Translations under genes and position numbers: made by a program
Shown: in pieces, positions 39,619 through 61,691 of the stretch
Numbering within the stretch: position 1 is the first letter of the stretch
Layout: every line of letters begins with the position of its first letter
Notes under the pieces: model-generated
Told to the model about the DNA's origin: nothing
Databases searched by the model: none
What the model saw: only the letters and a program-made list of their open reading frames with translations
Assembly (NCBI GenBank): GCA_000004985.1
Contig: GG738882.1
Reading direction: 5' to 3' (one strand)
Source: Naegleria gruberi
Lineage: Eukaryota
DNA: 64,000 nt

Positions 39619-42600
39619 TTATTTAAACTTGATTTTCTGAAGCATCTCCTTCATCAACCGTATCAACATTACCACTATTATCATTATCATCTGCACTAAC
39701 AACTTGGTCAGCAGATTTTTCATCCTTTGATTCTTCTTCAACCACTTGCTTTTCATTGTTTTCAATTTTGTAGTGGCGGATTCTTCCAATTCAATTTCAT
39801 CAGAAGTGATAATATTTTCGGCTGGTTTTTCAATTTCTGGAGGAGAAACTATTGTTGGTACTTCTTCAACTGGTTGTTCAATAGTAACCAAAGGCTCGGA
39901 AGAAGGTTCAAGTGTAGTTTCTTGTGGTTGTTGATCATCTAAAGTAGGGGTTACCTCTTCCATTTCAATATCCTTAGCAGCTTGCTCTGCAACTACTTCT
40001 TTAATTAGTTTATCTTCTTTCTTCTTTCGTATAGCAACTATTACAACTACACCAGCAGTGGCTATTAAAACAAGTACCACCAAAGTAACTGATACACCAA
40101 TAGCAACGTCATCATTCATTATAGCAATTAAGCCACTTGATTTTGTTGGATGACTAATTGTGCTTGTATCTGTATTTGGAATTGAGCTGTGATTTGGATT
40201 GACAGTAGAATTAGTAGGTGAGGTAGTATTTGTAGTTGAAGTATTATTACTAACTGTGGTAGTATTGGTGACAGAGGTATTATTGCTAACTGTTGTGGTA
40301 TTAGTAACTGTTGTAGTATTAGTGACAGAAGTGGTATTAGTAATCTCAGTTGTGTTCTTAACTTGTTCAACAGTATCTTGTTCAACAGTGGAGAACAAAC
40401 CAATAGTGAAAGTACCAGTACGTTTAACTTGAACAGAGAATGTACTTGTATCATTTGAGGCAATAGTACAATCAGATGATTCAACATAGGTAGTTCCATT
40501 CAATTCCATACACTTATAGGATTGGACAATCTTTCTAGTTTGTGGAGTTCTTTCAATTGACAATGTAGCCAAAGTTTCATTTGAGACAATATTCAATGAA
40601 TTTGTGGAATCGAAAACGTAGAATTCAAATGATTTAGAGGCAGCTGTAAGATTGTAACCTGATGTTGGTGTAGAAACCTTCATATAAAGCTTGACATTTT
40701 CAATTTCAGCTAGTTCAGGAAGTGAAGTAACTGCTTCATTAATCTTGAATGAGGATTTATCATTGACAAATTCATTCAATCCAGAGAGAGTAGGAACACT
40801 GACTAATCTGGCATAAGAATAAGATCCAATACCTTCACCTCTAATAGCAGGCATGTCAGAAACAACATTCTTAATTTCACATTCAACCAAATTGGCGAAA
40901 ACATTATCTAACTTGGCCAAATCACTTGTTGTAAGTTTACGAGACTTGGTTGATCTAAGCCTCATCAAATTACGAGCTTGAGAAAGTGAGGAAGTTACAC
41001 GACTTTCTAAAACACCTGCTGAACCCTTGGTAGAATCAATTTGATCGGCTCCCATCTTTACAGAACCACTTGAAGAAGCTCCTGAAATTGTATTATCCAA
41101 ATTATCGACAACCTTTGAAACAGTGTCATCATTCAAAGTACCAACACAACCACTGATGGATGAAATTACGGAAATCTTTGAATTGGTGGATTCAGTGCTT
41201 TGTTCAGTGAGAGATTCCTCAGTAGATGTTTGATCAAAGTATTTGTTAACAAAGTTAGAAGCAGCTTCTTGGAATTGTTGAGCTTGCTCAGCATTTGTTG
41301 GAGAAACAGAACCAATAACACTCATGACAGATGCCATTGATGAAACAGAGACAGATCCTTGATCAGAAGAGAGTGTATCGAGAGCACTGATAGCATCTGG
41401 AAGAGAGACAACTACTTGTTGAGTTGTTTCTGATGCAGCACCCATAGAGTCATAGACAATGACCTTAATATCCAATTCACCAGCTGGGAGTGTAACAGAG
41501 ATTGACTTGGTTTCTGACTTTTGTGAGAGAATATTCCATGTAGAATCGTTTTGTTTCTTATATTGGAATTCGTAGAAGAGTGGTGATTGTGGATCAGACC
41601 AACCATTACCACATTTAATCTTGAATTCATCCTTCAATGCAACACCTGTGGATGGAGAAACTTCAAATTCACCCAAAGTTGGAGGAGAGTTAACAGTGAA
41701 TTGAATAGAGGCAGAACCCTTCTTCTTACCATCTACAATTGTAACATCAACCTTATAAGTAGCACCAGGAGCAAGTAGAGATTTTGGAATTGTGATATAC
41801 TTCTTGGAAACAACAATTGAAGAATCAAATTCCATATCTGATGATGACCATGTGAAAACTCTTTGATTTGTCAAACTATCCAATACAGAAGTTTGCAAGA
41901 CCAAATCAACAGATGGATCTAATGAGGTTAAATCTGTATCTTTTGGTGGTTGAATTTGGACACGAATCAATCTAGATTTTGGTTCATCCAAGATTGTTAT
42001 TTGGAGAGAAGCTTGAGCCTTTCTTGTTCCTTTAACAAAGCTAGCTGTGAAGAGATACAAACCAGGTTCCATTTGATTGACAAACTGAAGACTTGTTTGA
42101 TCAATATTATTTTCATTAGCTTGGAAACCATTACACATTTCTGCTGTATCAGTATTCATACATGTCAATGAGACAATACCATCAGTTGAGCTTGGAGCAC
42201 TTGGATCAGACTTGTAGACAGAGAATTTAACATCGTTTTCAAATGATTGAGACAAGTCTTTAACACTGAATGCAACCTTCAATGGTAATGCCTTTGCAAC
42301 AACCTTGAAATGAACAACAGTGTCTGAGGCACCTTCTTGAGAAACAGTCAAGACAAAGTAGTAATCACCTTCTTCAGTAATCTTGGTAAAGTCATTACCA
42401 AATACTAACAATTCATTTTGAGTCTTAATTTCAACAGCAGTTTGAGGATAGCCAGGATCTTGTTGATAATTGTAAGTGATTGGACCTGTACCCTTATAAC
42501 ATTTTGGAGTCGAAATCATTGGAGTAATGACAGCCTTGCTACCAATTGTGAATGTAGATTCAAGACCATCCTTAAGTGTAACAAATGGTGCAGTATTTTC

Positions 42601-45600
42601 TGTAACTTCAAATTTGACTGTCTTGACAGTTTGCTCTTGAGAGAATGAGCTCTTTACTGTAACTTGAACCAAATAAGAACCAACACTAAGAGTTTCTGCT
42701 GTGAATGAAACACCAGAGCTAGTAACTGAAGCGAGGAGATTATCAACCTTTTCATCATCATCTGGGGTTGGAGCTTCAATGTTTGTCCAAGAGAAGAGAA
42801 GCTTTCTTCTATCCAAAGATACAGAACCAGATGCATCCAAATAGATACTACCACAAGCCTTTGAGATGGATGCCTTGTCAGTAGTCAATACAGCAGCAGG
42901 AGCAATACTTTGATATTCCTTCTTATTAACAAGAACATCTTCTGTTTCTTCACTATCAAGATAACTTCTGAACTTTAAGGTATCTCCAATATTAATTGTA
43001 GCCATAGAACCGAGGACAATTTGGAATACATTCTTTTCGTTAAAGATACAAACAGGATTGGATCCCAATGAATCAACATTGGCAATAACACTAGAACACT
43101 TGATTCTCTTCTTGATTGGTGTGAAAATTGTACCAACAATAGAGTCACCCTTTTCAGTGAAACCAAATGTTGTTTCATCAACCTTATAATCACACTTATC
43201 ACCGTACCAACCTGGTAAACAAGATTCACAGCTGGCACCAATTGAATTACCTTGACATGAGCATGTACCATCCTTATTACAAGTACCCTTTGAATTACAA
43301 TTAACTGAAGCAGAACAAGCAATTTGACAATTATCACCAACATAACCATCCTTACAAGTATTACAGAATTCTCCTACCCAATTGCTACCAGCACTACAGA
43401 CACACTTGAATTCAGAATTACAAGTACCATGACTATTACAAGTAAATTCATCAGAACATGTTCTTTCTAAACATCCTTCACCAGTGTATGCAGGAGTACA
43501 AATTGAACAATACTTTTGAGGGTCATAATTTCCACTACATGAACAAACACCGGATGAAATACATTTACCCTTAGAAGAACAAACAAATGAAGTGTTGGAA
43601 CGGTCAATACCATCACACTTAAAGTTTTGACAACTTGATCCATCATAACCATCATTACATTTACAAACTGGAACACCATTTTCAGCAACACAACTACCTC
43701 TACCACCACAAACACTCTTATCAGTTGCGGTAATACCATTACAAATTGCAATATCACATGTTGGACCAGTAAATCCATTCTTACATTTATCACAATAAGT
43801 ACCAGCAAAATTACCCAAACAAGAACAAGTATTTGGTGAAACACATTGACCACGGAATGAACAGCCACCTTCAGTTTCAGTCTTACCATTACAAGTTGGT
43901 GTAGAACAGTCATAACCTGAATAACCATTTTGACATTTACACAAGTTAGGAGAATCACAGGTACCCTTTGATGAACAAGCATCAGAAGCAGTACTTTCCT
44001 TTCCGTAACAGATTGGAGATTGACAATAACTTCCTGTATAACCTTGCTTACATGAACAAGTATCTTGATCAACACATGAACCCTTACCAGAACAAACTCC
44101 AGTTGCAGAGTATTCCTTTCCAAAACATGTAGTATTTGGTGGTAAATAACTGCCATAGTAACAATTTGAGGTTGGCAATGTGGAACAATCAGTTGTGAAC
44201 AAGTCAGGATGAGTAACTTCATTGTTGAGAATAATAGAGCAAACACCTGAACACCATTGCTTTTCTTCTGGAACACCCAAAGCTGAAGGATTACATGGAG
44301 TGAATGATTGATAGCACAAGAATTTCTTAATGGCTGCTTTACAATCGTCTCCACATTCAAGACCTCTACTCTCAACTTGTTTCAATACTTCAGAGTAGTT
44401 AGTACTGGTAGTTTGATCCAATTTCAACAAATTAGCAACAATCATGGTCTTGGCTTCAACGGCATTAGTGGCACCTACTGCAAAATTAGTATTCTTAATA
44501 CTGTACTTGACATGAGCCTTACAGAATGGAACGGATACAGATGGAGCAGAAATACAAGCTGGAGTGAGTGTGTAAATATTACATTCATCACCATAGTATT
44601 CTGGAGGACAAACACGCTTACATTTACCACTTGTCATTGAATAACCAGAAATACAAGATGAACATGGTTGACTAGTATTAGTAGTGAGATAGCCAGTGTT
44701 ACAGATACAAGTTGTAGTTGATGATGTAGTATCAACATATTGACATACACCTTGTCCACAACCATTCTTACAAACTGGATCAGTTCTTACACAGGTACCA
44801 AACTTGTTGACATAACCTGCTGATGTAGAACAAGAGCAACCAGTGGTTGCCTTGGAGAAACCTAACAATGAATTACAAACACAAACACCTGCCTTGGAAA
44901 GATAACCTTGAGTGGTATCACAATAGCATGATCCTTCATTGTCTGGCAAGTAACCCAAATCAGCATTACAGACACAAGCGTTTGAAACATTGACCAAACC
45001 AACTGGACAAGCAGTACATGGATTTGTACTGTCAACAGTGATAAACTTATTTCTACATTCACAATATCCAATAGTGGTATTAGTCTTGAAGAAACAATCA
45101 CCATTTGATCCACAATTCAAATCACACTTGACAAGAGGAGTAATACATTGACCATCCTTTAGAGTTAATCCTTCTTTACAGACACATCCTCCGGAAACTT
45201 CATCAGAAACAAATCCAAGTGAGCTATCACAGACACATTTTCCATCAGAGAGAACAAATCCAGATTTACACTTTTGACAATTTGAGCCAGCAAAGTTATT
45301 GAAACAATTACAGAGTTGGTTACCCTTAGCGTCCTTAGTACATTCACCATTAGCACCACAATTCAAAACGCATGGTTTAACTTCACAGAGTGAACCGCTA
45401 TAATTATCAGTACAATTACAATAGGCAGTTCCTGTTGTGTTGACACAAGTACCATGTTGACAATCGAGAGTACATGGAGCAATGGTACATTGAGTTCCCT
45501 TGAATCCTTGATAACAAGTGCAAGTATCAATTCCACTACAGCTTCCCATTCCTGAACAAACTGAAACATTATTCATTGAAATTCCGTAGCAGGTANNNNN

Positions 45601-48600
45601 NNNNNNNNNNNNNNNNNNNNNNNNNNNNNNNNNNNNNNNNNNNNNNNNNNNNNNNNNNNNNNNNNNNNNNNNNNNNNNNNNNNNNNNNNNNNNNNNNNNN
45701 NNNNNNNNNNNNNNNNNNNNNNNNNNNNNNNNNNNNNNNNNNNNNNNNNNNNNNNNNNNNNNNNNNNNNNNNNNNNNNNNNNNNNNNNNNNNNNNNNNNN
45801 NNNNNNNNNNNNNNNNNNNNNNNNNNNNNNNNNNNNNNNNNNNNNNNNNNNNNNNNNNNNNNNNNNNNNNNNNNNNNNNNNNNNNNNNNNNNNNNNNNNN
45901 NNNNNNNNNNNNNNNNNNNNNNNNNNNNNNNNNNNNNNNNNNNNNNNNNNNNNNNNNNNNNNNNNNNNNNNNNNNNNNNNNNNNNNNNNNNNNNNNNNNN
46001 NNNNNNNNNNNNNNNNNNNNNNNNNNNNNNNNNNNNNNNNNNNNNNNNNNNNNNNNNNNNNNNNNNNNNNNNNNNNNNNNNNNNNNNNNNNNNNNNNNNN
46101 NNNNNNNNNNNNNNNNNNNNNNNNNNNNNNNNNNNNNNNNNNNNNNNNNNNNNNNNNNNNNNNNNNNNNNNNNNNNNNNNNNNNNNNNNNNNNNNNNNNN
46201 NNNNNNNNNNNNNNNNNNNNNNNNNNNNNNNNNNNNNNNNNNNNNNNNNNNNNNNNNNNNNNNNNNNNNNNNNNNNNNNNNNNNNNNNNNNNNNNNNNNN
46301 NNNNNNNNNNNNNNNNNNNNNNNNNNNNNNNNNNNNNNNNNNNNNNNNNNNNNNNNNNNNNNNNNNNNNNNNNNNNNNNNNNNNNNNNNNNNNNNNNNNN
46401 NNNNNNNNNNNNNNNNNNNNNNNNNNNNNNNNNNNNNNNNNNNNNNNNNNNNNNNNNNNNNNNNNNNNNNNNNNNNNNNNNNNNNNNNNNNNNNNNNNNN
46501 NNNNNNNNNNNNNNNNNNNNNNNNNNNNNNNNNNNNNNNNNNNNNNNNNNNNNNNNNNNNNNNNNNNNNNNNNNNNNNNNNNNNNNNNNNNNNNNNNNNN
46601 NNNNNNNNNNNNNNNNNNNNNNNNNNNNNNNNNNNNNNNNNTTTGACAAGTACAATTATTTGGGGATGAGCAAAAACCTTTTCCTGAACAAACATTTCGA
46701 TCATTGTAGAGAGAAATTGAACAGTTGTGGAATTGACAATTCTCACCATAATATCCATCTTGACATGTACAATTATTTGGAAGTGCACATAAACCATGAC
46801 CACTACAAACCAATGAAGAAGTTGATGGAATAGAGGAACAGTTAAATAATTTACAAGTTTCTCCATAATAGTCCAATTGACATTCACACTTATTTGGTTG
46901 AGAACATTTACCATTACCAGAACAAGCTGATGAATCATCATAACGTACAGATGAACAATTATACAATTCACAATTATTTCCATAATAGCCTGCATTACAT
47001 TTACAAGTATCTAAATCAACACATGAACCATGGCTGGAACAAACATCTCTTGAATCAGCATAGGTGTTATCACAACTTGGAATTTCACAATTATTTCCCT
47101 TAAATCCACCGTTACACTCACAAACATCAATATCAGTACATTTACCATTACCACTACAAACCATAGTAGAATTTGATGGAACAGATTTACAATTATACAC
47201 TTCACATGACTTTCCATAATAACCACCCTCACAAGAACATTGATTTGGAGCAATACAAGGACCTCTTGATGAACATACAGAATTTTCATTCTTGTAAGTG
47301 CCATAACAATCAAATTGAGAACAATCCTTGCCATAGTATCCTTCTTTACATGAACATTGATCTGGAGCAATGCAGCTTCCCAAACCAGAACATACAAGTT
47401 TGTCATCTGAAACAATGCCGAAACACTTTGGTTTTTCACAAGCAGTACCAGAGTAGATTGCTTCAAAGGTAGAATTTCCAGATTGGAAGCAAACCTTTCC
47501 AGCATAATTGAACAATGCTAATACACCATCATTTTCAAGAACCAAAGTAAATGGATGACTAATTCCAGAGTCAGAACATGTTACAAATTTGTTAGGAGAG
47601 TATCTAACATCAGATCCATCTTTTGGTGATTCACCAATGAACAATAATTGACCAAGAGCTGAGACTTCAATACGAACATTATTAGCCTCAACATTCCATT
47701 CACTAACAACTTCTCCAGTTGAAACCTTCTTAATCTTGATGTAGGTTAATTCAACAAGGAGTACATATTGTCCATTATTAGAAACCAATGAAGAATTTCC
47801 ATTCACAGCCACAACATTCAAAGCACTTGAAATGAATGAATTGCTTGAATTGAAACCACCACAAGAACAAGTACTTGGTGAAACGCAGAAACCTTGTCCA
47901 GAGCAAACTTGGGCATCATTATTGAAAACGCCAGAACATGTAAAGACTGCACAGGATTCACCTTCAAAACCAGCTTTACAGGAACAATTGTTATGGGAAA
48001 GACACTTGCCATTTCCGCTACATGCAGAATTATCGAGTGAATTGACATTGAAACAGTCGAACTTTTCACATTGTTCACCATATTCATTGTTCAAACATTT
48101 ACAACTGTTCGGAGCTGTACAAACACCTTTACCTGAAGTACAAGCTTTGGAATCATCAAAGGAAAGACCGAAACATTCGTATTTTTCACATTTAACACCA
48201 TAATATCCTTCAGGGCAAGAACAATTATCTGGTGAAATACATGAACCAACTCTGGAGCATGGTGATTCACTGACAGAAATATTGTAACAATAGTAATTTT
48301 CACAACGATCTCCAGAATATCCTGGTTGACAAAGACACGAGTTAGGACTATCGCACACTCCATGGCCTGAACAAACAGTGCTATTGGAGCTTGAAAGAGC
48401 GTAACAATCATGGAATTGGCATTCAGGTCCATAATATCCGTCTAAACATTCACATTTTCCAGGTTGAGTACAGTTACCATTTCTAGAACAAGCATTGACA
48501 TCACCAGCAGCAAAGTTGTAACATTGTGGAATATTACAATTCGATCCACTATAATGCAAAGAGTCAGTTGAGTTGAATTCTACACTGGCAAAACAAACTG

Positions 48601-51600
48601 AACCCATAATATTGTAAACAACTAGGGAACCATCGTTTTGCAATACCATCCTGAATGGAGCAGTAGAAGAGCTACAAACAGGAACAAAATCTGGAACATA
48701 TTTGACAGCACTAGTAGTGTTATCCTTTTCTAAAATTCCGTTGAATGTAACGATGCCACTATTTGAAATTTCAATAGTGATATTATTGAATAGGAAATCC
48801 CACTTCTTAGCAACCACACCAGACATGGCATTTTCGATAGAAACAAAGTTAGTTCCAATCGAAAGCAAATACTTTCCATTGGCTGACTTTAAGGTTTGAC
48901 CTTCTTCCAAGACAATGCTGGAATGATTGGTTGAAATACTGTTATCAGCAGAGAGATCCAAACACAAACAAGTATCAATATCTTTACACAAACCTCTTCC
49001 TTCACAAACATTTGGATCACTATTCAAAACACCATTACACTTGTAATTATTACACATTTCGCCTTCATAAGATTTCTTACATTGACAAACGTTTGGAGAA
49101 ATACATTGACCAAAACCACTGCAAGTAGAAGGACTCTTTGAATCGACACCAAAGCAATCATATTTTTCACATTCAACACCATAGTATCCACTCTTGCATT
49201 TACAATTATTTGGACTCTTACATTCACCATTTAATGAACATGATTCATTGCTTGATTTACCATAACAGTAATAGGTTTCACACATCTGGCCAGAGTATCC
49301 TTCATGGCAAGAGCAATTATCATGAGCAATGCATTTACCAGACGAAGAGCAAACTGTTCCCTGCTCAGCATCAATATCAAAACAAGAGTAAATGGAACAA
49401 TCACTGCCTCCATATCCACTTTCACAAGAACAGTTATTAGGAGAAATACATGATCCTCTGGAGGAACATACAGAGCTGTCACTCATTAAAATACCATTAC
49501 AGTCATAGTGCTGACAATATGCTCCATAATATCCTTCTTCACATGAGCAATTATTAGATGAAGAGCACACACCATGTGATGAGCAAGCCATTGAGCTGTT
49601 AGAAAGTACTCCATAGCAAACTGGAATTTCACAAACAGCACCTCCATAGAGTTGACTGAATTGAGTTTGATTACTTGATTGATAACAAATATCACCTCTA
49701 GAATTGAACAATAACAATGTTCCTAAATCATCAAGAACCAATTTGTAATAAGAAGAAACTTTCCAATTCTTGCATTCTTCTGATTGGAATTGTCCAATAA
49801 TCAGAACGCCCCTATCACTAACATAAATGCTAGAAGCTTCCCAAGAGGAAATGACAGCACCATTACTAGTATCAACAATGATTGTAGAGTTTTCAGTGAT
49901 ATTCAATTGGAATTTTCCATTGGAAGAAATCAAAACTGATTCAAAAACTGATGTTGCATTATTTAGCAAGTAACTATTAGAGGAAGAAAGCCAATTACAT
50001 GAACATTCATCTTGAGCAACACAGAAGCCATGTCCAGAGCAAATATTACTATCATTATTAGCGATTCCACCACAAGAATATATTTCACAATTTTCACCAT
50101 AATAACCTGGTTGACATTTACAACTATTAGGGGCAGCACATTGTCCACGAGCTCCACAAACATCAGCCATTGATTTTTCAATACCACCACAATCATAGAA
50201 TTGACAATTATTTCCATAGTAACCATCTGCACATTCNNNNNNNNNNNNNNNNNNNNNNNNNNNNNNNNNNNNNNNNNNNNNNNNNNNNNNNNNNNNNNNN
50301 NNNNNNNNNNNNNNNNNNNNNNNNNNNNNNNNNNNNNNNNNNNNNNNNNNNNNNNNNNNNNNNNNNNNNNNNNNNNNNNNNNNNNNNNNNNNNNNNNNNN
50401 NNNNNNNNNNNNNNNNNNNNNNNNNNNNNNNNNNNNNNNNNNNNNNNNNNNNNNNNNNNNNNNNNNNNNNNNNNNNNNNNNNNNNNNNNNNNNNNNNACT
50501 TGTGGTACAGTAATAGAGTTCACAATTCAAACCTTGGTATCCATCTTTACATTTACATACATTTGGTTCAGAACAGTTACCCATTCCAGAACAAACACTT
50601 GGTTTCAATCTAGAAATACCATCACAATCAAAGATGTTACATTCATCTCCATAGTAGGATTGAGAACAAACACAGGTATCTGGAGCAACACATGAACCAC
50701 TTCCTGAACAAACCTTCGAATCATTGAATTCAATGCCATAACAGAGAGGAGTATTACAAATTTCACCACCATATTGAATCGTGAATTTTACATTTTCATC
50801 AGCATTGGTTTCAAAACAAATATCACCTACAGGTCCGTAAGTAATAAGTTTACCATTATTTTGAAGAACAAATCTATATGGATGACCAATTTGACTATTT
50901 GCACATTCTTGATTGAGGGTAACATTATCACCAAGAGAAAGAATACCCAAATCAGAAATTAGTAAAGCCAGTGAATCAGAACTATTTGTCTTGAATTCAT
51001 AAACAATAGAACCAGTAAGAGTATTTTCAACTCTTAAGGAATCAGTAGTGATGAAAGCTCTATAATTTCCATTATTGGAAACAATTGAAGTATTCATTGA
51101 GAGAACAAGATTGTTTTCCAATGATGAAATAATAGTATTGTTCTCAGAAGCATCAATGCAGGTACATGTGTCAATTGCAGAACAAATACCTCTTCTTGAA
51201 CAAACAGATGAATCAGTGTTTGGTAGTCCTTGACAGGTGAACGTCAAACATTGATCTCCAGTGTATCCAGCAGTGCAATTACAAGTATTTGGTGAAACAC
51301 ATGAACCGTGACGTCCACAGACTTCACTAGAGTTAAAGGCTATACCATAACAATCGTGGTTTTCACAATTATTGCCATAGTAACCATTTTGGCATTTACA
51401 ATTATTTGGAGCCACACATGATCCCATTCCAGAGCAAACATTTGATTCATTCTTGTGAATTCCGTCACATTCAAAATGTTCACACTCATTTCCGTAATAT
51501 CCATTCAAGCATGAACAATTGTTTGGAGCAGAACATGATCCAAATGAAGAACAAACTGTCGAAGCTTTCAAAATCTTTCCATAACAATCATAATTTTCAC

Positions 51601-54600
51601 AATTTTCACCATAATATCCATTTTGACATTGGCACTTATTTGGTTGAGAACATGAACCTTTTCCAGAACAAACTGAGGCATCTGAGAAGACAACTCCTGA
51701 ACATTTGTGATATTGACATTCAGCACCATAGTAACCTTCTTGGCATTCACAAGTGTTTGGAGCAACACAAGAACCAAATCCTGAACAAACATTTGTATCA
51801 TTTGGAAGTTTAGAATAACAAACTTGAGCATTACATTTTTCTCCACCATAGTATTGTGTAATATTTACACTTTCACCAGTACTTTCGAAACATTTAATAC
51901 CACTAGCAGAGTACAAAACCAAAGAACCATCATCAACCAATTGTAATCTGAAAGGATGATCAAAGATATTGCACTTTGTGTTATCATTCAAAGTGAATGA
52001 GGCTCCCTTAGATTCGTAGGTACGATTACCATAGACAGTAATGACACCTTGAGTTGAAATTTCCAATGTTTGATTAATCAAGGAAGTTCTCCATTGTGAA
52101 ACAATTCTTCCACTAACATGTTCAACTCTAAGGAATTCATAACCGAAGGATAATGCGTATTTTCCATTAGCTGAGGTGAGAGTGCTAATACCTTCCTCAA
52201 TAGCAACATTGGATTTAGCAGAACTCATAAATGTACTGTTTTCTGTAAAGTCTTTACAAGAACAAGTATTAATTGAGGAACATATACCACTTCCAGAACA
52301 AACCTCAGAGTCAATATTTTGAACACCAAAGCATTCATAAGCTTGACAAGCATTTCCAGAGTATCCGTTATTACATTGACAATTGTCAGGAGAAGTACAT
52401 TTACCAAAACCGCTACAAGCATCAGTAGAATTGAAAACTTGATTGAAACACTTGTACCATTCACAATTATTTCCATAGTACCCCTTATCACAAGTACAAG
52501 AATCTGGTTTCAAACATGAGCCCTTTCTTTTACAAACTGAGGATTCATTGAATGCAACTCCATAACATTCAAAATAGTCACAATTTACACCACTATAGCC
52601 ACTATTACATGAACATTTGTTTGCAGAATCACATGAACCGTTTCCAGAACAAGCTGATGTTTCGTTATATAATACTCCAAAACATTCATAGAGTTCACAA
52701 TTTGCTCCACTATATCCTTGTTGACAAGTGCAGTTATTGAGAGAAACACAATCACCTCTTCCAGAGCATACTGATGAATTGACATTAATAATTCCAGAAC
52801 AAGTGTGATATTGACATTTATCACCAGTAAATCCTTCAGCACAGTTACACTTATTGACTGCAATACAAGAACCACTTGAGCTACACACATACGGATTTGT
52901 AGCCATCAAACCATGGCAAACTGGAGCATCACAATTGATGCCTCTATAACCAGCATTGGCTGCATTAGAAATGGATGATTCACTATTGTTAGTAGACCAA
53001 CAAAGTCCACTTTCTGAAATCAGTTCTAAACCAAAATCACTCAAGAATAGTCTGACTGTGCCAGATTCAGTACAACTGGCAATTGTATCTGTTTTTTGAC
53101 TAGTTACAATAATGAGAGAGTTACCACTTAATCTTAAATTTGGTTGGGAATTGTATGACCATTGTTTTCTAACTTCCATAGTAGCTGTTTCAATAACAGA
53201 AACGTTATATTTACCAACAAGTAATTGTAAGATTTGGTTTGGTGATCTTAATGTGCTGTTTTCACTCAAAACAACATTGTCATTACTAGTAATAATTGAT
53301 TCAGGAGTAATGTCCATACAAACACAAGAATCTGGTGCTGAACATACACCCCTACCTCCACAAACACTTGTGGTATTACTCTTATTGATTCCATTACAAT
53401 AATAGGTATTACAATTGCTACCACTATATCCTTGTTGGCAGTTACATGTATCTGGAGAATTACATGAACCATGATTACTGCAAACTCCATTCGTATTATA
53501 AGGAATATTGAAGCAATTATAGCTTGAACATTGCTGACCATAATAATTATTATTACATTGACATTTTTCTGGAGATTGACATGCACCCCTACCTGAACAA
53601 ACAGTAGCAGTATTCTTGAAACTAGTTCCAAAGCAATTATAATTTTCACATTGTAAGCCATAATATCCTTGTTGACATACACAGTTATCAGGACTAGAAC
53701 AAGTACCCCTTGATGAACAAGCTGAAGAAGAAGAATGGGAAACACCATAACAGGAGAAAGTTTCACAATTAGGACCAGAATATCCAGTATTACAAGTGCA
53801 GTTATCTGGTGAAGTACATGATCCTTTTCCTGAACACACAGATGCATTAGTATATAACACTCCATTGCATGTGTATTTTTCGCAATCAATACCAGTGTAT
53901 CCTGTATTACATATACAGTTGGCATTTTTACATGATCCATGTTTAGAACACACTCCTATATTATTTTCTCCTAGTGTATTACAATAGAAATTGGTACACT
54001 CTGCCCCACCTACTGAGCTAAGCAAATTTTGGTATAAGGCAGTACAAATATTACCTAGAGGATTTGCTATAACCAAGTTACCAGTATTGTCAATTACTAG
54101 ATAGAATATAGATTTATCCTTGCAAGAATATACACTTGGAGCTGATGATGTAATTGCCACAGTTTCGTGATGTCTTAAAACGCTAGGATAATTATCCAAG
54201 TAGAGGTAACCATCATAGCTGTCTATTTGAAGTGCAATGCTTCCAAATTTTTCAAGAATTAATGCACCATTAGAGGTATATAATTTGTGTCTTCCATTAG
54301 GAGATATTAAGGAAATATCAGGTTTGCTAATTCTTCCTGGGTTAATTACGAATGAATTGGTTGAAGTAATCTTTGCTTTTGAACAGTCACATTCACCAGG
54401 AGAGACACAAAATCCATTTGAGCTACAAGAAGTATTTGAAGTGGACAATTCATTGTAACAATAATAGTCAGCACAAGTACTTCCACTATATCCAGCCTTA
54501 CAAACACAGTTATCTGGTGAAGTACAAGAACCATGGCCGGAACACACAGATGCATCACTGTTTAAAACGCCATCACATGTGAACTTTTCGCAATTAGTTC

Positions 54601-57600
54601 CAAAATAACCACCGCTACAAGTACAAGCTCCTTCTGAACAATTACCTTGACCTGAACAGACACTACGACTGGTCTCCAGTACTCCATTACATTTAGTCAA
54701 TTCACAATCTGTACCTGCATATACATTTAACACTGCAAGGTTGATTGCAGAACAAATATAAGATCCTTGATAAACAACCAAGTTTCCAGTATTTTCTAGT
54801 ACAAGCGTATATTGAGAATTACGATCACAAGAATAAGAAGTAGAAGTAAGAGAGGTAATAGTTAACTGTTGATGAACATCGGACAACACAAGCAAATGAT
54901 CAGAAACATATAAATATTTGTTGTCTGTAGCCTGCTTGAAAAGAAATTGTTGAATTGTTTCACCTTTTCGTTTCAAGTCAAAGGATTGAGTTCCTGATTG
55001 GAATTTGTATTTTTCATTTGTGGAAGTGAGTGCAAAATCTGAATACTGGTTACCATGGCTCATTTTGTAATGGTTTTGATTGACGCCACCTATTAGCTTT
55101 AGTGTGCTACATTCACATTTATCAATATCATAACATTGGCCATTACCTGAACATGAAAGAGGAGATGAGTAGAGAACTCCACTACAGTGGTAATCAGAAC
55201 ACCATGTGCCACTGTATCCTGTTTTACATGAACATGTATTCTTATCAATGCAAGAACCATGTCCTGAACACACACTAGTAGAGGTATTTAAAATGTTATT
55301 ACAAGTGTACAAGTGACATTCAATACCTCCTAACCCAGTTGGACAAGTGCAACTTTCTGTACTGTCACATTTTCCAATACCACCACAGACAGTAGGGTCT
55401 GAATGGTTCTTTCCATTGCAGTACCAATTGTCACAAGTAGGTCCCGAATATCCATATTGACAATGACAAGTATCAGGAGCAAAACAGTAACCTTTGCGAC
55501 TGCAAACAGAACTATCGCTGTTTGCCTTTCCGTGACAATAATAGGTTCCACAGGTGGTTCCAGTATAGTTTGCCTTACATGTACACACATTTGGAGTTAA
55601 GCATTCTCCATTTCCATTGCAGGCATTACCATTTGTATCGAGTGGACATTTTGTAATTTCACAATAATCTCCAAAATAGCCATCCTCACACTTGCAAGAA
55701 TTTACGCCAATGCAAGTACCACGCGAACTACAAACGGATGAATTTGTTGGAGAAATTCCATTGCATGTAAATGTTTCACAGTTTGATCCATTAACCAAAG
55801 ATTGTGTGGTACTTTCTGCAACGTAATAACTATCTTTTGTTGATGCATAACATTTACTTCCATATCTATCTCTTGTAACCAATTGACCATTATTTTCAAG
55901 ATTCACCGTAAATGGATATCCATAACATGGATAAGTTTCCACCGTGTAAGGCATGTTTCCATAATCACCCTCAAAAGTAGGTTTTCCCAAAGCATCCAAA
56001 AAAAGTTTTGTTGAATAGTAATTATTATATATCGCCCAAATAACAGATCCTGTTTTGAGATTATAAACAAATGCGTTAGAATAATTTGGGAAACTGAATT
56101 TGTATTTTCCATTTGGTGAATACAAGGCAACACCAGAAGAATCAACTTGGAAAAAGGAATCTGACTTTGACAATGCGTAAGTTCGGGATTTAGTAGGTAC
56201 ATCAGCACATTTACATGTATCATAGCTAGTACAATAACCTTGTCCAGAACAGACTGCAGATAAATTGGTAGCACTTACTCCAAAACATGTGTAATTTTCA
56301 CATGCAATTCCTGAATGACCAAAGTTGCATTGACAATTATTTGGAGAAACACATTTACCATTATAAGAACACGAAATTGGCAATGAACTGTCATAGCCGT
56401 TACAAGCAAACTTTTCACATCTAGTGCCACTATAACCAGCTGTACAATTACAAGTATTTGGAGCAATACATTGACCTCCAGATGAACAAACTGTTGAGGA
56501 ATTCCAAGCAATACCAAAACATGCTTGTATTTCACAAGATTCTCCAATGTGACCATCTTTACATTGACATGTGTTTGGTTTAGTACATGAACCTAATCCA
56601 GAACAAACTGAACTATCGTTATGCTCGTATCCAAAACAGTCAAAATATTCACAAACATCTCCATAGTAACCTGGCAAACATGAACAATTGTTTGGTGATG
56701 TACATTGTCCATGTGCTGAACATACCGAACTATTGGTAGAGAAAATATTATTACACTCATACTTTTCACATGTAATTCCATAATATCCAGGTTGACATTG
56801 GCAATTATCAGGTTCAACACAAGTACCATGAGATGAGCAAACCAAAGATGAATCAAATGGAGTACCATAACAATTTGAAAGTTGGCAATTATTTCCAAAA
56901 TAGGAGGAATTAAATGTACTGTTTGAACCAGTTGAGTAACAAACATGTCCAAGATGATAATTAACTAGCAAGAGATCACCATTATTAGTGAGAACAATTC
57001 TGAATGATCCTCCAGCACAGTCTATTTCTCCAAAGAGTTTAGAAGCACTTTCTTCAGTTGCATTTATGGAAATATAACCATAAACCAAAACAGTACCATT
57101 GGAATCAACTTCAATTCTTTGATTCCAAAGACCAGTTGACCAAGTTTTCATAATACTGTTTCCAGAAGTTATCATAATTTTGTTGTCTTGAATAATGAAT
57201 TGATATTTTCCATTAAGGGAATACAATTCACTGCCGTTCATCATTACAGTAGAATTACCATCAAAATAGAATGAATTTCTCGATACAAAATCAAAACAGG
57301 TACACTTATTTGGAGAAATGCAAACACCCTTTCCAGAACAAACATTTTCATCGTTTCTATTCAAACCATCACATTCGAATTCAGTGCAATTATCTCCGTA
57401 ATATCCTGTATTACATTGACAAGTATCAACTGCAATACATGAGGCAAAAGCTGGACAAGCATCAGGTGAGAATCTCGAAATACCGTTACATGCCCATTCT
57501 TGACAATTACTACCAGAATATCCTGGCTTACATTCACAGTTATCAACATGAGTACAATTACCAAAACCAGAACAAACCATACTCGAATTTGCACTCACTC

Positions 57601-60600
57601 CAAAACAAGTATCAAATTCACAAAAGTTTCCAGTGCGATTACTGAAACAATTACATTCATTCGGTCCAACACATTCACCATTTGAAGAACAATTTCCAGA
57701 GCAGGTAAATTGGTCACAATTCAATCCAGTCCATCCTTCCTTACATTCACATGTTGGTGGAGATTGAGTACCCTCATTGGTGAGACATTTGCCATTACCA
57801 GAACAAACTCGAGGAGAATTGAAAGTAATTCCAAAACAGCCTAAAACTGCACACTCCTCGCCAGCATAATATCCTTTACATTGACAGGTGTTTGGTGAAG
57901 TACAAGAGCCATTTCCTGAACAAACACTTGAATTATCGTGAGCAATACCAAAGCATTCAAACATTTCACAAATGTGTCCCCTGTATTCTGAATTACATTT
58001 ACATGTATTTGGTGAAACACATTTACCTTTTCCAGAACAAACACTTGAATCGCTCTTATAAATCCCATAACAAGCAAACTTTTCACAAAGGTCTCCATAA
58101 TAGGTTGAATTACATTGACACTTCTTTGGACCAACACAAATTCCCTGTTGATTACATTCAGATGTAAATTGAGCAGAATCAAAACATTCAAATTTTTCAC
58201 AATTAGAACCAAAAGCTCCTTCAACACATGAACAAGTTTCAGGGGCTACACAATTTCCATTGCCACTACACACACTAGAATTTGAGGAAAGAATACCATT
58301 ACACTTAAACTCATTACAAGCACCAAACAGATACTTGTAAGTGCTATTGACAGAGATGGTATAACAGAGCACATTGGCTGATGTGTAAACTGCCAAATCA
58401 CCTGTATCTTGGAGAACGACAGTAAATTGGCCTCCTTCACAAGTTTGATCAGTAATTGGTGTTGATATGACATTGACTGTGGAATTTCCATCTTCTTCAA
58501 TGGTAACATTTGAAAAAGTCAATTCTAATTGACCATTGGCAGATATTTTCAATTCTGCTTCGGAACTTTCAGAATTTACTTGATACAACAATTCATTGGT
58601 CTTGACATTCATAATGGAAAAGTTGCCTTGATTCATTGTTGCCTTATAAATTCCATAGGTTGAGGAGAGTGAACTGTTTGAAGAAAGAACAATTCCTCCT
58701 GTAGTGGCAATCTTGAAATTATCAGAACTAATCTCTCCAATACATTGACATTCATCAACGCCCACACAAATTCCCTTTCCAGAACACACCTTCTTGTTAT
58801 TACTCAAAATACCATAGCATGTGAAATCTGAACAATTATCACCAGTGAACCCAGTATTGCATTGACACTTATTTGGACCAATACATTTACCATTCCCACT
58901 ACAAACGTTGGAAGAAGAAGGATCGATATCATTACATGCAATATATTCACAATTTGTACCATTAGCTCCAGCAGCACAATGACATGTATCATTTGCGACA
59001 CAAACACCATTACCAGAACAGACCAAAGAAATGTTTGCGCTTGGAATACCTGCACAGTAAATAGGTGGTTCTTCACTTTGGGTAGAATTGGATGTATCTA
59101 TGAAGGTGGAATTATCAGTTGATGTTCCATTGTTTTCAGAACTAGTTGAATTATTATCAATCAAAGTACTGTTATCAACGAGTGTGCCATTTTCAACTTT
59201 TGTACTATTATCAGAGATAGTACTGTTATCAACAAGCGTGGAATTATCAGTCAAAGTACTATTGTCTGTTAAGGTACTGTTATTATCATCACTAGGTAAA
59301 GTTTCATTACCACCAGGTACAGTACTATTGTTATCAACTTGTGTACTATTATCATTTGTAAGAGTACTATTATCAAAAATAGTGGAATTTTCATTCAAGG
59401 TACTGTTATCACTAATGACTGTTTCATTACCACTTGGTAATGTACTGTTATTAATGAGTGTGACATTTTCAACTTGTGTGCTGTTATCAACAGTTGTTTC
59501 GTTAGCATCTGATACTGTACTATTATCAACTTGTGTACTATTATCAGAGATAGTACTGTTATCAACCAGAGTGGAATTATCAGTCAAAGTGCTATTATCT
59601 ATCAAAGTACTATTATCAACTTGTGTACTATTATCATTTGTAAGAGTACTATTATCATAAATAGTGGTGTTTTCATTCAAGGTACTGTTATCACTAATGA
59701 CTGTTTCATTACCGCTTGGTAATGTACTGTTATCAATTAAAGTACTGTTTTCAGCAAGAGTTGAATTTTCTCCTTTTGGCAAAGTTTCATTATCAAAGGA
59801 AGTAGTATTATCAACAGTTGTTTCATTACCACTTGGTAAAGTACTGTTATCAACGAGAGTGCCATTTTCAACTTTTGTGCTATTATCAGAGATAGTACTG
59901 TTATCAACCAGAGTGGAATTATCAATCAAACTACTATTGTCTGCTAAGGTACTGTTGTCTGCAAGCGTAGAATTATCCTCAGTTGGCAAAGTTTCATTAT
60001 CAAAAGAAGTGCTATTTTCAGCAATTGTTTCATTAGGCATTTGATGCTGTACTATTATCTATCAAAGTACTGTTATCAATGAGTGTGCCATTTTCAACTT
60101 GTGTGCTGTTATCAATTAAAGTGCTGTTATCAACAAGAGTTGAATTATCTCCCTTTGACAAAGTTTCATTACCAAATGAAGTGCTGTTATCAACAGTTGT
60201 TTCGTTAGCATCTGATGCTGTATTATTGTCAATCAAAGTACTGTTATTTTCAACGAGTGTACTATTATCACCAGGTAAAGTCTCATTACCATCTGGTAAT
60301 GTACTATTATCAGCCAAAGTACTGTTATTTTCAACTTGTGTACTATTATCAGAGATTGTACTATTATCAACAAAAGTTGAATTATCAATCAAAGTACTAT
60401 TATCTATCAAAGTACTGTTATTATCATCACTAGGTAAAGTTTCATTACCACCAGGTACAGTACTATTGTTATCAATTAAAGTACTGTTTTCTGCTAGAGT
60501 GGAATTTTCTCCTTTTGGCAATGTTTCATTATCAAAGGAAGTAGTATTATCAACCGTTGTTTCAATACCTCCTGGTAAGGTACTATTATCAACAATTGTT

Positions 60601-61691
60601 TCATTACCGCTTGGTATAGTTTCATTTGCATCTGATGCTGTACTATTATCCATAACTGTAGTATTAGAATCGTTTGATCCTTCAACAGTTGAGTTCTTTT
60701 CATCTGAGGATACACCGTTATCATTTAAGGTACTATTATCAGCAAGAGTGGAATTATCAATTAAAGTAGTGTTATCAAGCAGCGTACTATTGTCAAATTG
60801 TGTGCTATTATCAGAGATAGTACTGTTATCAACCAGAGTGGAATTATCAGTCAAAGTACTGTTGTCTGCTATGGTACTGTTGTCTGCAAGCGTAGAATTT
60901 TCCTCAGTTGGCAAAGTTGCATTATCAAAAGAAGTACTATTATCAACCAAAGTACTGTTATTTTCAGCAATTGTTTCATTAGCATTTGATGTTGTATTAT
61001 TATCCATAACCGAAGTAGTATTATTGGAATCGTTTGATCCCTCAATGGTAGAGTTCTTTTCATCTGAGGATACACCATTATCAACCAAAGTACTGTTATC
61101 AACGAGTGTGCCATTATTGTCATAGAGAGTACTGTTATCAAGAGTTGAATTATCAATCAATGTACTATTATCTATCAGAGTACTGTTATCAGCAAGTGTA
61201 GAATTTTCCTCAGTTGGCAAAGTTGCATTATCAAAAGAAGTACTATTATCAACCAAAGTACTGTTATCAACAAGCGTGCTGTTGTCAACAACAGAAAGAG
61301 TACTATTGTCCTCTTGTGTGATATTATTGGAAGAATCAACAGAAGGTGAATTAACAACAAGCAAATCACTACAAGTTGGACCTCCATATCCATCGTTACA
61401 TGTCTCACATATTCCAGTCTCGACGTTACAACTGCCATGCTCACATATTCCATTCACATCTGTACAATTCTCTTGGCAATAAGTAGAGTTGTAAGCATAG
61501 TAAGACTCTGCACAAGCGCAATTTGCAGCTCCGCAATCACCCTTACACAATGGGTCAGTAGGGCATGAACTTAATGCAACATCATTGTCAGCCTTAATAA
61601 AAGTAATCAAGGCAAAGAAGAAGAGCAAAACTACAAGCAAAACTGCTCTCTTCTCCAGCAAGATGGTTAATTTCATTTTTTTTACAGTCAA
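39619..61691 (-). CDS. Giant (>7,000 aa) type-I surface protein: signal peptide, EGF-like modules, NST-rich tandem repeats, about 11 [B-lectin + ~10 EGF] super-repeats, Cys-poor stalk, TM, acidic tail. One gene, interrupted by 2 assembly gaps and at least 1 apparent frameshift.
   Basis: Minus-strand ORFs 60033..61691, 45569..60040 and 39619..46995 abut or overlap with no stop-rich spacer. N-terminus MKLTILLEKRAVLLVVLLFFFALITFIKA is a signal peptide, followed by CKGDCGAANCACAESYY...CNDGYGGPTC. Repeated CxCxxGYxGxxCExxxC modules occur more than 100 times. B-lectin motifs include LTSANGKYALSF...LQLVDDGSLVLYS, LVLENTGNLVVYQ, LVIDNTGNLVIAN, VLQNDGSLVVYN and LENDGVLALFN. TM segment VAIGVSVTLVVLVLIATAGVVVIVAIRKKKED at about 40020..40110. 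N-gaps at 45596..46641 (1046 nt) and 50237..50497 (261 nt). Confidence 0.75.
45596..46641. other. Assembly gap (1046 N) inside the giant gene
   Basis: Run of N. Length is not a multiple of 3, so the ORF track changes frame across it. EGF-module coding sequence is present on both flanks. Confidence 0.95.
50237..50497. other. Assembly gap (261 N) inside the giant gene
   Basis: Run of N. The minus-strand ORF stays in frame across it (261 = 87 codons), with EGF modules on both sides. Confidence 0.95.
59140..61330 (-). repeat. Coding tandem repeats rich in N-glycosylation sequons (DNSTL/DNSTI/ENSTL units), mucin-like N-terminal region of the giant protein
   Basis: Translation reads ...DNSTLVDNSTLVDNSTSFDNATLPTEENSTLADNSTLIDNSTLIDNSTLDNSTLYDNNGTLVDNSTL... 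for more than 700 aa. At the DNA level this is short imperfect 15-nt units. Plus-strand ORFs 59088..60044 and 60079..61125 (VLLSTSV repeats) are antisense artifacts. Confidence 0.7.

What the first reader, a model, noticed from the sequence alone, without database searches (positions are those of the whole stretch)
59140..61330. About 2 kb of N-glycosylation-sequon tandem repeats (DNSTL units) at the N-terminal end of the giant protein
More than 700 residues consist almost entirely of N-x-T/S sequons in 5-residue units (DNSTL, DNSTI, ENSTL, DNGVSSDEKNSTIEGSNDSN...). This implies an extremely densely N-glycosylated, mucin-like distal region. The underlying DNA is a degenerate 15-nt tandem repeat, which is prone to expansion/contraction and assembly error.
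Basis: seen in the sequence. Interest (0 to 1): 0.5.

Follow-up and report, generated by a model that had tools for sequence, protein, structure and literature searches.

The report
Dense N-glycosylation-site repeat in Naegleria protein
A roughly 750-residue stretch near the start of a giant, unannotated surface protein of the amoeba Naegleria gruberi has an N-glycosylation site about every six residues, so it is most likely a sugar-coated spacer, though in this assembly one extra base breaks its reading frame.

Summary
The repeat is real. On the minus strand, 61328-59078 encodes about 750 residues with 124 N-x-S/T sequons. Composition-matched shuffles give 45±5, and the rest of the protein has 2%.

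Three details of the finding need correction:
- The unit is six residues and 18 nt ([L/I]-x-D-N-S-T), not five residues and 15 nt.
- The array is split between two reading frames by one extra C at 60036/60037. The "giant ORF" therefore starts inside the array, and the true start (ATG 61676, with a signal peptide) lies in the other frame.
- The DNA is too degenerate for easy slippage.

The window is Naegleria gruberi NEG-M, a eukaryote with a near-complete N-glycosylation pathway. The host gene runs 61676 to 39619, about 7,350 codons, and contains two assembly gaps. It encodes a type I membrane protein with EGF repeats and a REJ domain, and no public protein model covers it.

Synonymous codon variation shows selection in the NST frame. 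Paralogues carry unrelated sequon-rich arrays, and 112 of 124 sequons are N-x-T. Together these point to a heavily N-glycosylated, acidic, extended spacer.

A left-handed β-helix is the main rival. Hexapeptide signatures are detectable, but two AlphaFold2 runs gave no fold, the register breaks often, and the net charge is -123. Glycan occupancy is untested.

The parts
61590..61676 (-). True start codon (ATG 61676-61674) and predicted signal peptide MKLTILLEKRAVLLVVLLFFFALITFIKA
   Evidence: Three-frame translation. The hydrophobic core and the small residue before DND were read from the sequence. No signal-peptide predictor was available.
61371..61589 (-). Small N-terminal Cys-rich module (residues 30-102), weakly EGF-like, placed distal to the array
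   Evidence: Pfam EGF_2 matches only at E=0.12. The exhaustive search found no homologue covering it.
60038..61328 (-). Sequon array, part A (frame of ATG 61676): residues about 117-547, hexapeptide units [L/I]-x-D-N-S-T
   Evidence: Pfam Hexapep scores 33.1 bits for the whole sequence.
60036..60037 (-). One extra C (GCCTAAT versus GCTAAT in the sister copy at 60983) that shifts the frame and creates the stop at 60033-60035
   Evidence: DNA comparison of copies. All repeat pairs that straddle this point are offset by 3n+1 nt, while pairs on the same side are offset by 3n.
59078..60035 (-). Sequon array, part B (frame of the 4823-codon ORF): residues about 548-866 of the corrected protein, ending at ...NSTQSEEPPIYC before the first EGF repeat
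46642..59077 (-). EGF-repeat rod (teneurin/tenascin-type EGF, with at least 54 copies of a simple EGF-like Cys pattern counted by regular expression) with Cys-poor inserts. It contains the assembly gap 50237-50497.
   Evidence: Pfam EGF_2 3.5e-197 and EGF_TEN 3e-172. N runs. Motif count.
45596..46641 (.). Assembly gap (1046 N) inside the gene. The frame across it is unknowable.
39619..45594 (-). C-terminal part of the same gene: EGF and Cys-rich repeats, REJ domain (about 41350-42153), second sequon array (40183-40359), transmembrane helix (40030-40107), 136-residue cytoplasmic tail, stop at 39619-39621

Best explanation
The repeat is a translated, extracellular low-complexity domain of one giant type I membrane protein of Naegleria gruberi. 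The gene runs from 61676 to 39619 on the minus strand, about 7,350 codons including two assembly gaps.

The protein's order is: signal peptide, small Cys-rich module, about 750 residues of hexapeptide sequon repeats, a long EGF rod, a REJ domain, a short second sequon array, one transmembrane helix and a cytoplasmic tail.

Each unit of about six residues ([L/I]-x-D-N-S-T) offers one N-x-T acceptor. As the chain enters the ER, the oligosaccharyltransferase is expected to glycosylate most of the 124 sites. That would turn an already acidic (net charge -123), poorly hydrophobic chain into an extended, hydrated, protease-resistant glycan brush, in effect an N-linked counterpart of a mucin domain. 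The brush would hold the N-terminal Cys-rich module far from the EGF rod and contribute to the cell coat.

Shown here: the array, its period, its reading frame and the selection on it, the secretory topology, and sequon-rich arrays in paralogues.
Inferred: actual glycan occupancy, the extended conformation and the spacer or coat role.

The frame break at 60036/37 is a single-base insertion in this assembly. Whether it is a sequencing error or a real inactivating mutation cannot be decided here.
For: 1. Sequon excess. There are 124 sequons in 748 residues against 45±5 in shuffles, and about 91% of all Asn in the array sit in sequons.
2. Acceptor type. 112 of the 124 sequons are N-x-T, the more efficient acceptor. 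The paralogue P0070 array has 39 N-x-T against 2 N-x-S.
3. Protein-level selection in this frame. Ser of NST is encoded by AGY 59 times and TCN 19 times, Leu by all six codons, and pooled pS is 0.33 against pN 0.13 between repeat copies on both sides of the frame break.
4. Topology. An N-terminal signal peptide and a C-terminal transmembrane helix followed by RKKK place the array outside the cell.
5. Organism. RPB1 and Argonaute encoded in the window are exact matches to N. gruberi NEG-M proteins. N. gruberi has Alg7 to Alg10, Stt3, Ost1, Ost2, Ost3/6, Wbp1 and Swp1 (PMC4973528).
6. Sequon-rich arrays with otherwise different residues recur. One is LNETxx/IDNVTI in paralogue P0070, between its EGF repeats and REJ domain. 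One is PSTPGGNNST at the N-terminal end of the partial paralogue P0211, before its EGF repeats. One is VTNTTT/VSNNTS next to the membrane in this same protein. The feature they share is N-x-T/S.
7. The charge-hydropathy values fall on the disordered side (H 0.413 against a boundary of 0.472 at 0.164 charge per residue). AlphaFold2 finds no fold (pLDDT 35 and 43).
8. Closely spaced N-x-T sites can be fully glycosylated by a translocon-associated OST (PMC6761772).
Against: - No experimental evidence of expression or glycosylation is available, and the gene has no public protein model.
- In the assembly as given, the part downstream of 60036 has lost its signal peptide, so if the extra C is real the locus is a pseudogene.
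- The hexapeptide resembles left-handed β-helix repeats. Pfam Hexapep scores 33.1 bits against a cut-off of 27, the best hits in the exhaustive search are bona fide Hexapep/YdcK proteins at E down to 2e-11, and the weak PDB hits are LpxD, LpxA and γ-carbonic anhydrases.
- The yeast OST glycosylates closely spaced sites less well than the human STT3A complex, and how the Naegleria OST behaves is unknown.
Confidence: 0.6

Rival explanations
1. The array folds into a left-handed parallel β-helix (hexapeptide-repeat solenoid, as in LpxA, LpxD, YdcK and γ-carbonic anhydrase). It would form a rigid rod of about 20 nm. The NST motif would then be a structural feature of the turn (as in bacterial I-G-D-N-S-T repeats) and not primarily a glycan acceptor.
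For: - The period is 6 residues and 18 nt.
- Pfam Hexapep PF00132 gives a whole-sequence score of 33.1 bits against a cut-off of 27, and LbH_EIF2B gives 42.9 bits.
- An exhaustive phmmer search over 1.84 billion proteins gave 81 hits. The top ones are Hexapep or YdcK-solenoid proteins with [VIM]-x-[DG]-N-[AS]-x units, including one with literal IGDNST/IGENST repeats.
- PDB hits at E 0.05-0.7 are almost all β-helix enzymes, and they align L-A-D-N-S-T with V-G-D-N-T-V.
Against: - AlphaFold2 gave no fold either for 442 residues alone (pLDDT 35) or for the most regular 96 residues with an 8-row alignment of internal repeats (pLDDT 43, no secondary structure).
- 43 of 113 units are not hexapeptides, and runs of consecutive hexapeptides average 2.7, which is less than one 18-residue coil.
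- No single Hexapep stretch passes on its own, and LbH_EIF2B is below its cut-off of 54.
- The true β-helix hits are about charge-neutral, with K/R at the sixth position balancing the Asp. This array has no Arg, 7 Lys and a net charge of -123.
- Thr at the sixth position (69 of 70 hexapeptides) is unexplained by the fold but is required by a sequon.
- The arrays in the paralogues and next to the membrane keep N-x-T but not the rest of the motif.
Confidence: 0.15
2. The locus is a pseudogene in strain NEG-M. The extra C at 60036/37 is real and uncouples the signal peptide and first 547 residues from the rest, so the array is a recently dead relic.
For: - The frame break is present in the assembly.
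- No gene model exists anywhere in the public protein sets for any part of the 22-kb gene.
Against: - Both sides of the break remain open for 547 and more than 4,400 codons. They show pS greater than pN and no other stop.
- It is a single-base event in a draft Sanger assembly that also failed twice within the same gene (gaps at 45596-46641 and 50237-50497).
- The missing annotation is equally well explained by the gaps and the frame break defeating gene callers.
Confidence: 0.2
3. The region is modified mainly by O-linked glycans on its abundant Ser/Thr (34% of residues), or is not glycosylated at all and acts as an acidic, Asn-rich disordered linker or a Ca2+-binding segment.
For: The composition is T 18%, S 16% and D+E 17%. 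One paralogue N-terminus (P0211) is P/G/T/S-rich like classical mucin domains.
Against: An O-glycan or plain linker role would not require Asn two residues before nearly every Thr. 112 of 134 Thr are the +2 residue of a sequon, N-x-T outnumbers N-x-S by 112 to 12, and Pro is only 2%.
Confidence: 0.05

Closest known systems
Mucin (PTS) domains of animal and protist surface proteins
   Same: - Long, degenerate tandem repeats in the extracellular part of a membrane protein.
- Rich in Ser/Thr, poor in hydrophobic residues, with no Cys.
- Predicted to be unfolded.
- Expected to act as a glycan-stiffened spacer or coat.
   Different: - The conserved acceptor is the Asn of N-x-T, about one per 6 residues, not Ser/Thr for O-GalNAc or O-GlcNAc.
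- Pro is 2%.
- The chain is strongly acidic (net -123).
- About two of every six residues are hydrophobic, mostly aliphatic.
Left-handed β-helix hexapeptide-repeat proteins (Pfam Hexapep PF00132, YdcK solenoid PF18836; LpxA, LpxD, γ-carbonic anhydrase)
   Same: - Six-residue period with the signature [LIV]-x-D-N-[ST/A]-x.
- These are the best sequence hits in Pfam, in PDB and in the exhaustive search.
   Different: - This is a eukaryotic secreted protein.
- Gly is never at the second position.
- Thr is nearly invariant at the sixth position, where the true members have K/R or any residue.
- One- or two-residue insertions are frequent.
- The negative charge is uncompensated.
- AlphaFold2 predicts no fold.
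Sequon-rich arrays in N. gruberi paralogues (P0070, 1750 aa, EGF+REJ+TM; P0211, partial, EGF)
   Same: - Same protein family. The REJ-TM part is 35-48% identical to P0087, P0209, P0210 and P0211, and P0070 was found through the EGF region.
- The arrays are extracellular and dominated by N-x-T.
- Six-residue spacing is the mode in P0070 (21 of 40 intervals).
   Different: - The residues outside the sequon differ (LNETxx/IDNVTI, PSTPGGNNST).
- The arrays are shorter (about 270 and at least 125 residues).
- The P0070 array lies between the EGF repeats and the REJ domain, not at the N-terminus.
Viral glycan shields such as HIV-1 gp120
   Same: Selection for a high density of N-x-S/T sequons on an exposed surface protein (PMC2920574, abstract seen).
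   Different: In gp120 the sequons decorate a folded domain at roughly one per 20 residues (my own recollection, not tested here). Here there is a repeat with one per 6 residues and no detectable fold.
Sea-urchin REJ / polycystin-1 family (relevant to the host protein, not the repeat)
   Same: A REJ domain (PF02010, 134 bits, E 6e-39) lies in a very large extracellular region that precedes the membrane.
   Different: There is only one transmembrane helix and no PLAT or 11-TM channel-associated part. The ectodomain is made of EGF repeats, not PKD/Ig repeats.

Membership tests
Eukaryotic N-glycosylated (sequon-bearing) secretory protein domain | Asn-X-Ser/Thr with X not Pro | tested here: met
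   124 sequons in 748 residues, of which 112 are N-x-T
Eukaryotic N-glycosylated (sequon-bearing) secretory protein domain | The segment enters the ER lumen (signal peptide, luminal or extracellular topology) | tested here: met
   The N-terminal hydrophobic signal sequence and the single C-terminal transmembrane helix followed by RKKK were read from the translation. No dedicated predictor was available. In the assembly as given, the frame break separates the signal peptide from residues 548 onward.
Eukaryotic N-glycosylated (sequon-bearing) secretory protein domain | The organism has the dolichol pathway and an oligosaccharyltransferase | tested here: met
   The window is N. gruberi NEG-M. Table 1 of PMC4973528 lists Alg7 to Alg10, Stt3, Ost1, Ost2, Ost3/6, Wbp1 and Swp1 as present.
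Eukaryotic N-glycosylated (sequon-bearing) secretory protein domain | Glycans are actually attached to the Asn residues | not testable with these tools
   Needs PNGase F or Endo H shift assays, or glycoproteomics
Left-handed β-helix hexapeptide repeat (Pfam PF00132 and relatives) | A match to the family profile above the curated threshold | tested here: inconclusive
   Hexapep scores 33.1 bits for the whole sequence against a cut-off of 27, but no single stretch passes. LbH_EIF2B scores 42.9 against a cut-off of 54.
Left-handed β-helix hexapeptide repeat (Pfam PF00132 and relatives) | Uninterrupted hexapeptide register over several 18-residue coils | tested here: not met
   Only 70 of 113 units are hexapeptides. 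Runs of consecutive hexapeptides are 1-9 long with a mean of 2.7.
Left-handed β-helix hexapeptide repeat (Pfam PF00132 and relatives) | Adopts the β-helix fold | tested here: not met
   AlphaFold2 gave pLDDT 35 for the single sequence and 43 with an internal-repeat alignment, with no strands in the latter. A prediction is not a structure, so this is weak negative evidence.
   Sequon spacing of 5 occurs twice, against 74 times for a spacing of 6. There is no 15-nt period in TRF, and no peak at lag 15 above the codon-period level in the DNA self-match.
Mucin PTS domain | Pro/Thr/Ser-rich tandem repeats that serve as O-glycan acceptors | tested here: not met
   Thr+Ser is 34% but Pro only 2%, and nearly all Thr are the +2 residue of an Asn sequon. 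O-glycosylation itself is not testable here.
Polycystin-1 / REJ family (host protein) | REJ domain | tested here: met
   PF02010 scores 134.3 bits, E 6e-39
Polycystin-1 / REJ family (host protein) | PLAT domain and multi-pass membrane region after the REJ/GPS region | tested here: not met
   There is a single transmembrane helix and a 136-residue tail, with no PLAT hit

The most novel reading that the evidence does not exclude
The hexapeptide L-x-D-N-S-T may be dual-coded. It would be both a β-helix-type repeat and an N-glycan acceptor, so sequon occupancy (or Ca2+ neutralising the Asp ladder) would decide between two states: a compact rod of about 20 nm or a glycan brush more than 150 nm long. 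More broadly, Naegleria may have evolved a class of 'N-linked mucin' domains with a preferred six-residue sequon pitch. That pitch is seen in three independent arrays and might reflect the closest spacing its oligosaccharyltransferase can fill.
Probability: 0.07. Interest if true: 0.7.

Novelty: new variant of a known kind. Interest (0 to 1): 0.4.

Why it matters
If most of the 124 sites are occupied, this segment would carry on the order of 150-250 kDa of N-glycan on an 80-kDa peptide. That estimate is my own, assuming 1.2-2 kDa per oligomannose glycan. It would be a mucin-like brush built from N-glycans rather than O-glycans, at about one glycan per six residues.

That would make it a natural test case for three questions: how closely an oligosaccharyltransferase can pack glycans, what such a brush does on the surface of a free-living amoeba, and whether hexapeptide sequon arrays are a recurrent design in Heterolobosea.

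On the practical side, a gene of about 22 kb in the reference N. gruberi genome has no protein model. It contains two gaps and a one-base frame break that should be resolved by resequencing.

Tried and rejected
- A word-indexed homologue search with the 547-residue N-terminal ORF found nothing at E<=1e-5.
- Exact look-ups of the ORF products and of encoding contigs found no record of the giant gene.
- Searches with the EGF region and with the REJ-TM tail returned only paralogues at 48% identity or less and no self-hit. No orthologue or second strain could therefore be compared, and copy-number variation could not be assessed.
- A metagenome scan with the N-terminal 200 residues gave 134 pattern matches, none confirmed by tblastn.
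- Two AlphaFold2 runs gave no usable model, so no fold search was run.
- The Cys-poor inserts in the EGF rod looked like bulb-type lectins to me, but Pfam did not support this, so I dropped the idea of lectin domains binding the protein's own glycan array.
- Four literature searches for Naegleria N-glycan structures or surface glycoproteins returned nothing specific. One for a Naegleria EGF/REJ protein also returned nothing useful.
- The 348-codon ORF on the opposite strand (60079-61125) was rejected as a gene. It is a by-product of the repeat, since that frame has only 2 stops in 747 codons, and the synonymous/non-synonymous pattern fits the NST frame.
- Phage, plasmid, E. coli, bacterial-genome and RNA tools were not used, because the window is eukaryotic nuclear DNA.
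Full report
**What the window is.** The ORFs at 12650-17602 and 28598-31294 are exact matches to RNA polymerase II largest subunit XP_002674726 and Argonaute XP_002674730 of Naegleria gruberi strain NEG-M. Both sit on a 381,539-bp scaffold. Neighbouring ORFs encode ubiquitin E1, an RGS protein and Kelch/TPR proteins. The sequence is therefore nuclear DNA of a free-living heterolobosean amoeba, and eukaryotic N-glycosylation is a legitimate frame of reference. Table 1 of PMC4973528 lists N. gruberi as having Alg7, 13, 14, 1, 2, 11, Rft1, Alg3, 9, 12, 6, 8, 10, Stt3, Ost1, Ost2, Ost3/6, Wbp1, Swp1, Dpm1 and Alg5.

**Checking the observation.** On the minus strand, from about 61328 to 59078, the translation is almost entirely units such as LVDNST, LIDNST, LADNST, ISDNST, SFDNET, LPTEENST and LPSGNET.
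- The 748 residues hold 124 N-x-S/T sequons, or 0.166 per residue. Of these, 112 are N-x-T and 78 are NST.
- Two thousand shuffles of the same residues give 45±5, with a maximum of 64.
- The remaining 4,502 residues of the corrected ORF have 2.1% sequons, and the other ORFs of the window 0-1.9%.
- The composition is N 18%, T 18%, S 16%, D 12% and L 9%, with no Arg, Cys, Trp or His. The net charge is -123.

So the array and its coordinates are right.

**The period is not five residues or 15 nt.**
- Tandem Repeats Finder reports periods of 18, 21 and 39 only.
- DNA self-identity is 0.50 at lag 18, 0.44 at lag 36 and 0.42 at lag 39. At lag 15 it is 0.37, no more than at lag 3 (0.36).
- Successive sequons are 6 residues apart 74 times, 7 apart 21 times, 8 apart 10 times and 5 apart twice.
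- Cut at the sequons, 70 of 113 units are hexapeptides with consensus [L39 I10]-[V22 I13 A10 F8]-[D58 E9]-N-[S55]-[T69].
- On top of this sits a higher-order repeat of about 100-150 residues, whose copies are 60-91% identical in DNA.

**The frame break.** In the assembly the array is not one ORF.
- The frame that starts at ATG 61676 encodes MKLTILLEKRAVLLVVLLFFFALITFIKA, a plausible signal peptide. A Cys-rich module of about 75 residues follows, and then the array. This frame runs into TAA at 60033-60035.
- The 4823-codon ORF starts at 60040 in a different frame, already inside the array.
- The junction reads TCAAATGCCTAATGAAACAATTGCTGAAAAT, while the sister copy at 60983 reads TCAAATGCTAATGAAACAATTGCTGAAAAT. 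There is therefore one extra C at 60036/37.
- Independently, every gapless repeat pair that straddles this point is offset by 3n+1 nt, and every pair on one side by 3n.
- Removing one base gives a continuous ...DNSTASNANETIAENSTSFDNET... and 5,369 codons up to the first large gap.

I cannot tell whether the extra C is a sequencing error or a real mutation. The same gene contains two runs of N (50237-50497 and 45596-46641), so the assembler clearly struggled here.

**The host gene.** Beyond the 1,046-N gap the same strand stays open down to the stop at 39619.
- Pfam finds massive teneurin/tenascin-type EGF arrays in the middle part (EGF_2 E 3.5e-197).
- The C-terminal part has more EGF repeats and a REJ domain (134 bits).
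- The last 250 residues contain a second, short sequon array (KNTTEITNTTSVTNTTTVTNTTTVSNNTS..., 40183-40359). A single transmembrane helix (40030-40107) followed by RKKK comes next, and then a 136-residue tail.

The simplest reading is one type I membrane protein of about 7,350 residues whose ectodomain begins with the Cys-rich module and the sequon array.

None of three homologue searches, the exhaustive search or the exact look-ups returned this protein itself. The gene therefore has no model in the public protein sets. The closest relatives are N. gruberi paralogues at 35-48% identity in the REJ-TM part. One of them is named 'basal body protein' by its source.

**Is the NST frame the translated one?**
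- Within NST triplets, Ser is encoded by AGT/AGC 59 times and by TCN 19 times. Thr uses all four codons, Asn uses both, and the following Leu uses all six. Switching between the two Ser codon families needs two substitutions, so the amino acid is what is conserved, not the DNA.
- Across ten pairs of repeat copies, pooled synonymous divergence is 0.33 and non-synonymous divergence 0.13, on both sides of the frame break.
- The other sense frames have 28 and 226 stops.
- One antisense frame is nearly open (2 stops), which explains the mechanical 348-codon ORF at 60079-61125.

**What the array most likely does.** The feature shared by four different arrays is N-x-T/S and little else. The four are this array, the membrane-proximal one in the same protein, LNETxx/IDNVTI in paralogue P0070 (39 N-x-T against 2 N-x-S), and PSTPGGNNST at the N-terminal end of the partial paralogue P0211. 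Six-residue spacing is the mode in three of them.
- Thr at the +2 position, the better acceptor, is nearly invariant.
- Closely spaced N-x-T sites, even adjacent ones, are glycosylated efficiently by the translocon-associated human STT3A complex, although less well by the yeast OST (PMC6761772).
- The chain lies on the unfolded side of the charge-hydropathy boundary, and AlphaFold2 gives no confident structure.

I therefore think the array is a heavily N-glycosylated, acidic, extended spacer or coat domain, functionally like a mucin domain but built on Asn. Occupancy, conformation and role are inferences.

**The main rival: a left-handed β-helix.** The hexapeptide matches the [LIV]-x-D-N-[STA]-x pattern of that fold.
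- Pfam Hexapep scores 33.1 bits against a cut-off of 27.
- The best of 81 hits among 1.84 billion proteins (E down to 2e-11) are bacterial or phage Hexapep/YdcK-solenoid proteins, one with literal IGDNST repeats.
- The weak PDB hits are LpxD, LpxA and γ-carbonic anhydrases.

Against it:
- No single Hexapep stretch passes, and LbH_EIF2B is below threshold.
- 38% of units break the six-residue register, and runs average less than one coil.
- Both AlphaFold2 attempts failed.
- The true β-helix hits balance their Asp with Lys/Arg at the sixth position, whereas this array carries -123 net charge.
- The fold does not explain the invariant Thr.

I give this rival about 0.15. The two readings could in principle coexist if occupancy is partial.

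**On instability.** Adjacent 18-nt units are only about 50% identical and none are identical. The longest exact repeat is 70 nt (60892 and 61198). Slippage is therefore unlikely. Unequal exchange between the 86-91%-identical higher-order copies is possible but could not be examined, because no second strain or orthologue was retrievable.

**Verdict.** This is a real and statistically extreme sequon array, correctly located. It is best explained as an N-linked mucin-like domain of an unannotated giant EGF/REJ surface protein of N. gruberi. It is a new variant of a known kind (a glycosylated low-complexity spacer), of moderate interest, and needs resequencing and a deglycosylation experiment to settle it.

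Noticed in passing
window 45596-46641 and 50237-50497: Two runs of N (1,046 and 261 bases) lie inside the giant gene. The mechanical '4823-aa' and '2458-aa' ORFs both read through N as X, so their ends and their apparent overlap are artefacts of the gaps.
   Followed up: yes
window 39619-61676 (minus strand): The whole gene of about 22 kb has no counterpart in the public protein collections searched. Queries from the N-terminus, the EGF region and the REJ-TM tail gave no self-hit, so the gene appears to be unannotated in the N. gruberi reference.
   Followed up: yes
window 40183-40359 (minus strand): A second, short sequon array (VTNTTT/VSNNTS units, 12 sequons in about 60 residues, modal spacing 6) lies immediately outside the transmembrane helix. 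It looks like a membrane-proximal glycosylated stalk.
   Followed up: partly
window 60079-61125 (plus strand): A 348-codon ORF runs antisense to the array. That frame has only 2 stops in 747 codons because of the repeat's codon structure, so it is very probably not a gene.
   Followed up: partly
window about 57050-57475 and about 55300-55700 (minus strand): Cys-poor inserts of about 130-140 residues interrupt the EGF rod. Motifs such as VVLQDTGDLAVY and IVLTNNGDLLLVNY reminded me of bulb-type lectins, but Pfam gave no match. Their nature is unknown.
   Followed up: partly
P0070, P0211, P0209 (N. gruberi paralogues on other scaffolds): P0070 has an N-x-T array of about 270 residues between its EGF repeats and REJ domain. 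The partial model P0211 begins with a P/G/T/S/N-rich sequon region. P0209 is named 'basal body protein' by its source, which is odd for a single-pass EGF/REJ membrane protein.
   Followed up: partly
P0164 (132 aa) and P0138 (266 aa, astacin domain), from the exhaustive search: Unrelated short proteins carry similar hexapeptide sequon repeats (IDNSTS IDNSTL VNNSTS VDNSTI, and YENSTL repeated about 12 times after an astacin protease domain). DNST-type hexapeptide sequon repeats therefore arise elsewhere, but in far shorter arrays.
   Followed up: no
window 21290-23828 (plus strand): An ORF with Kelch and TPR matches ends with a sub-threshold G-alpha match (39 bits against a cut-off of 48.8) and overlaps the next ORF (22932-23828). 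This may be one intron-containing or frame-broken gene.
   Followed up: no
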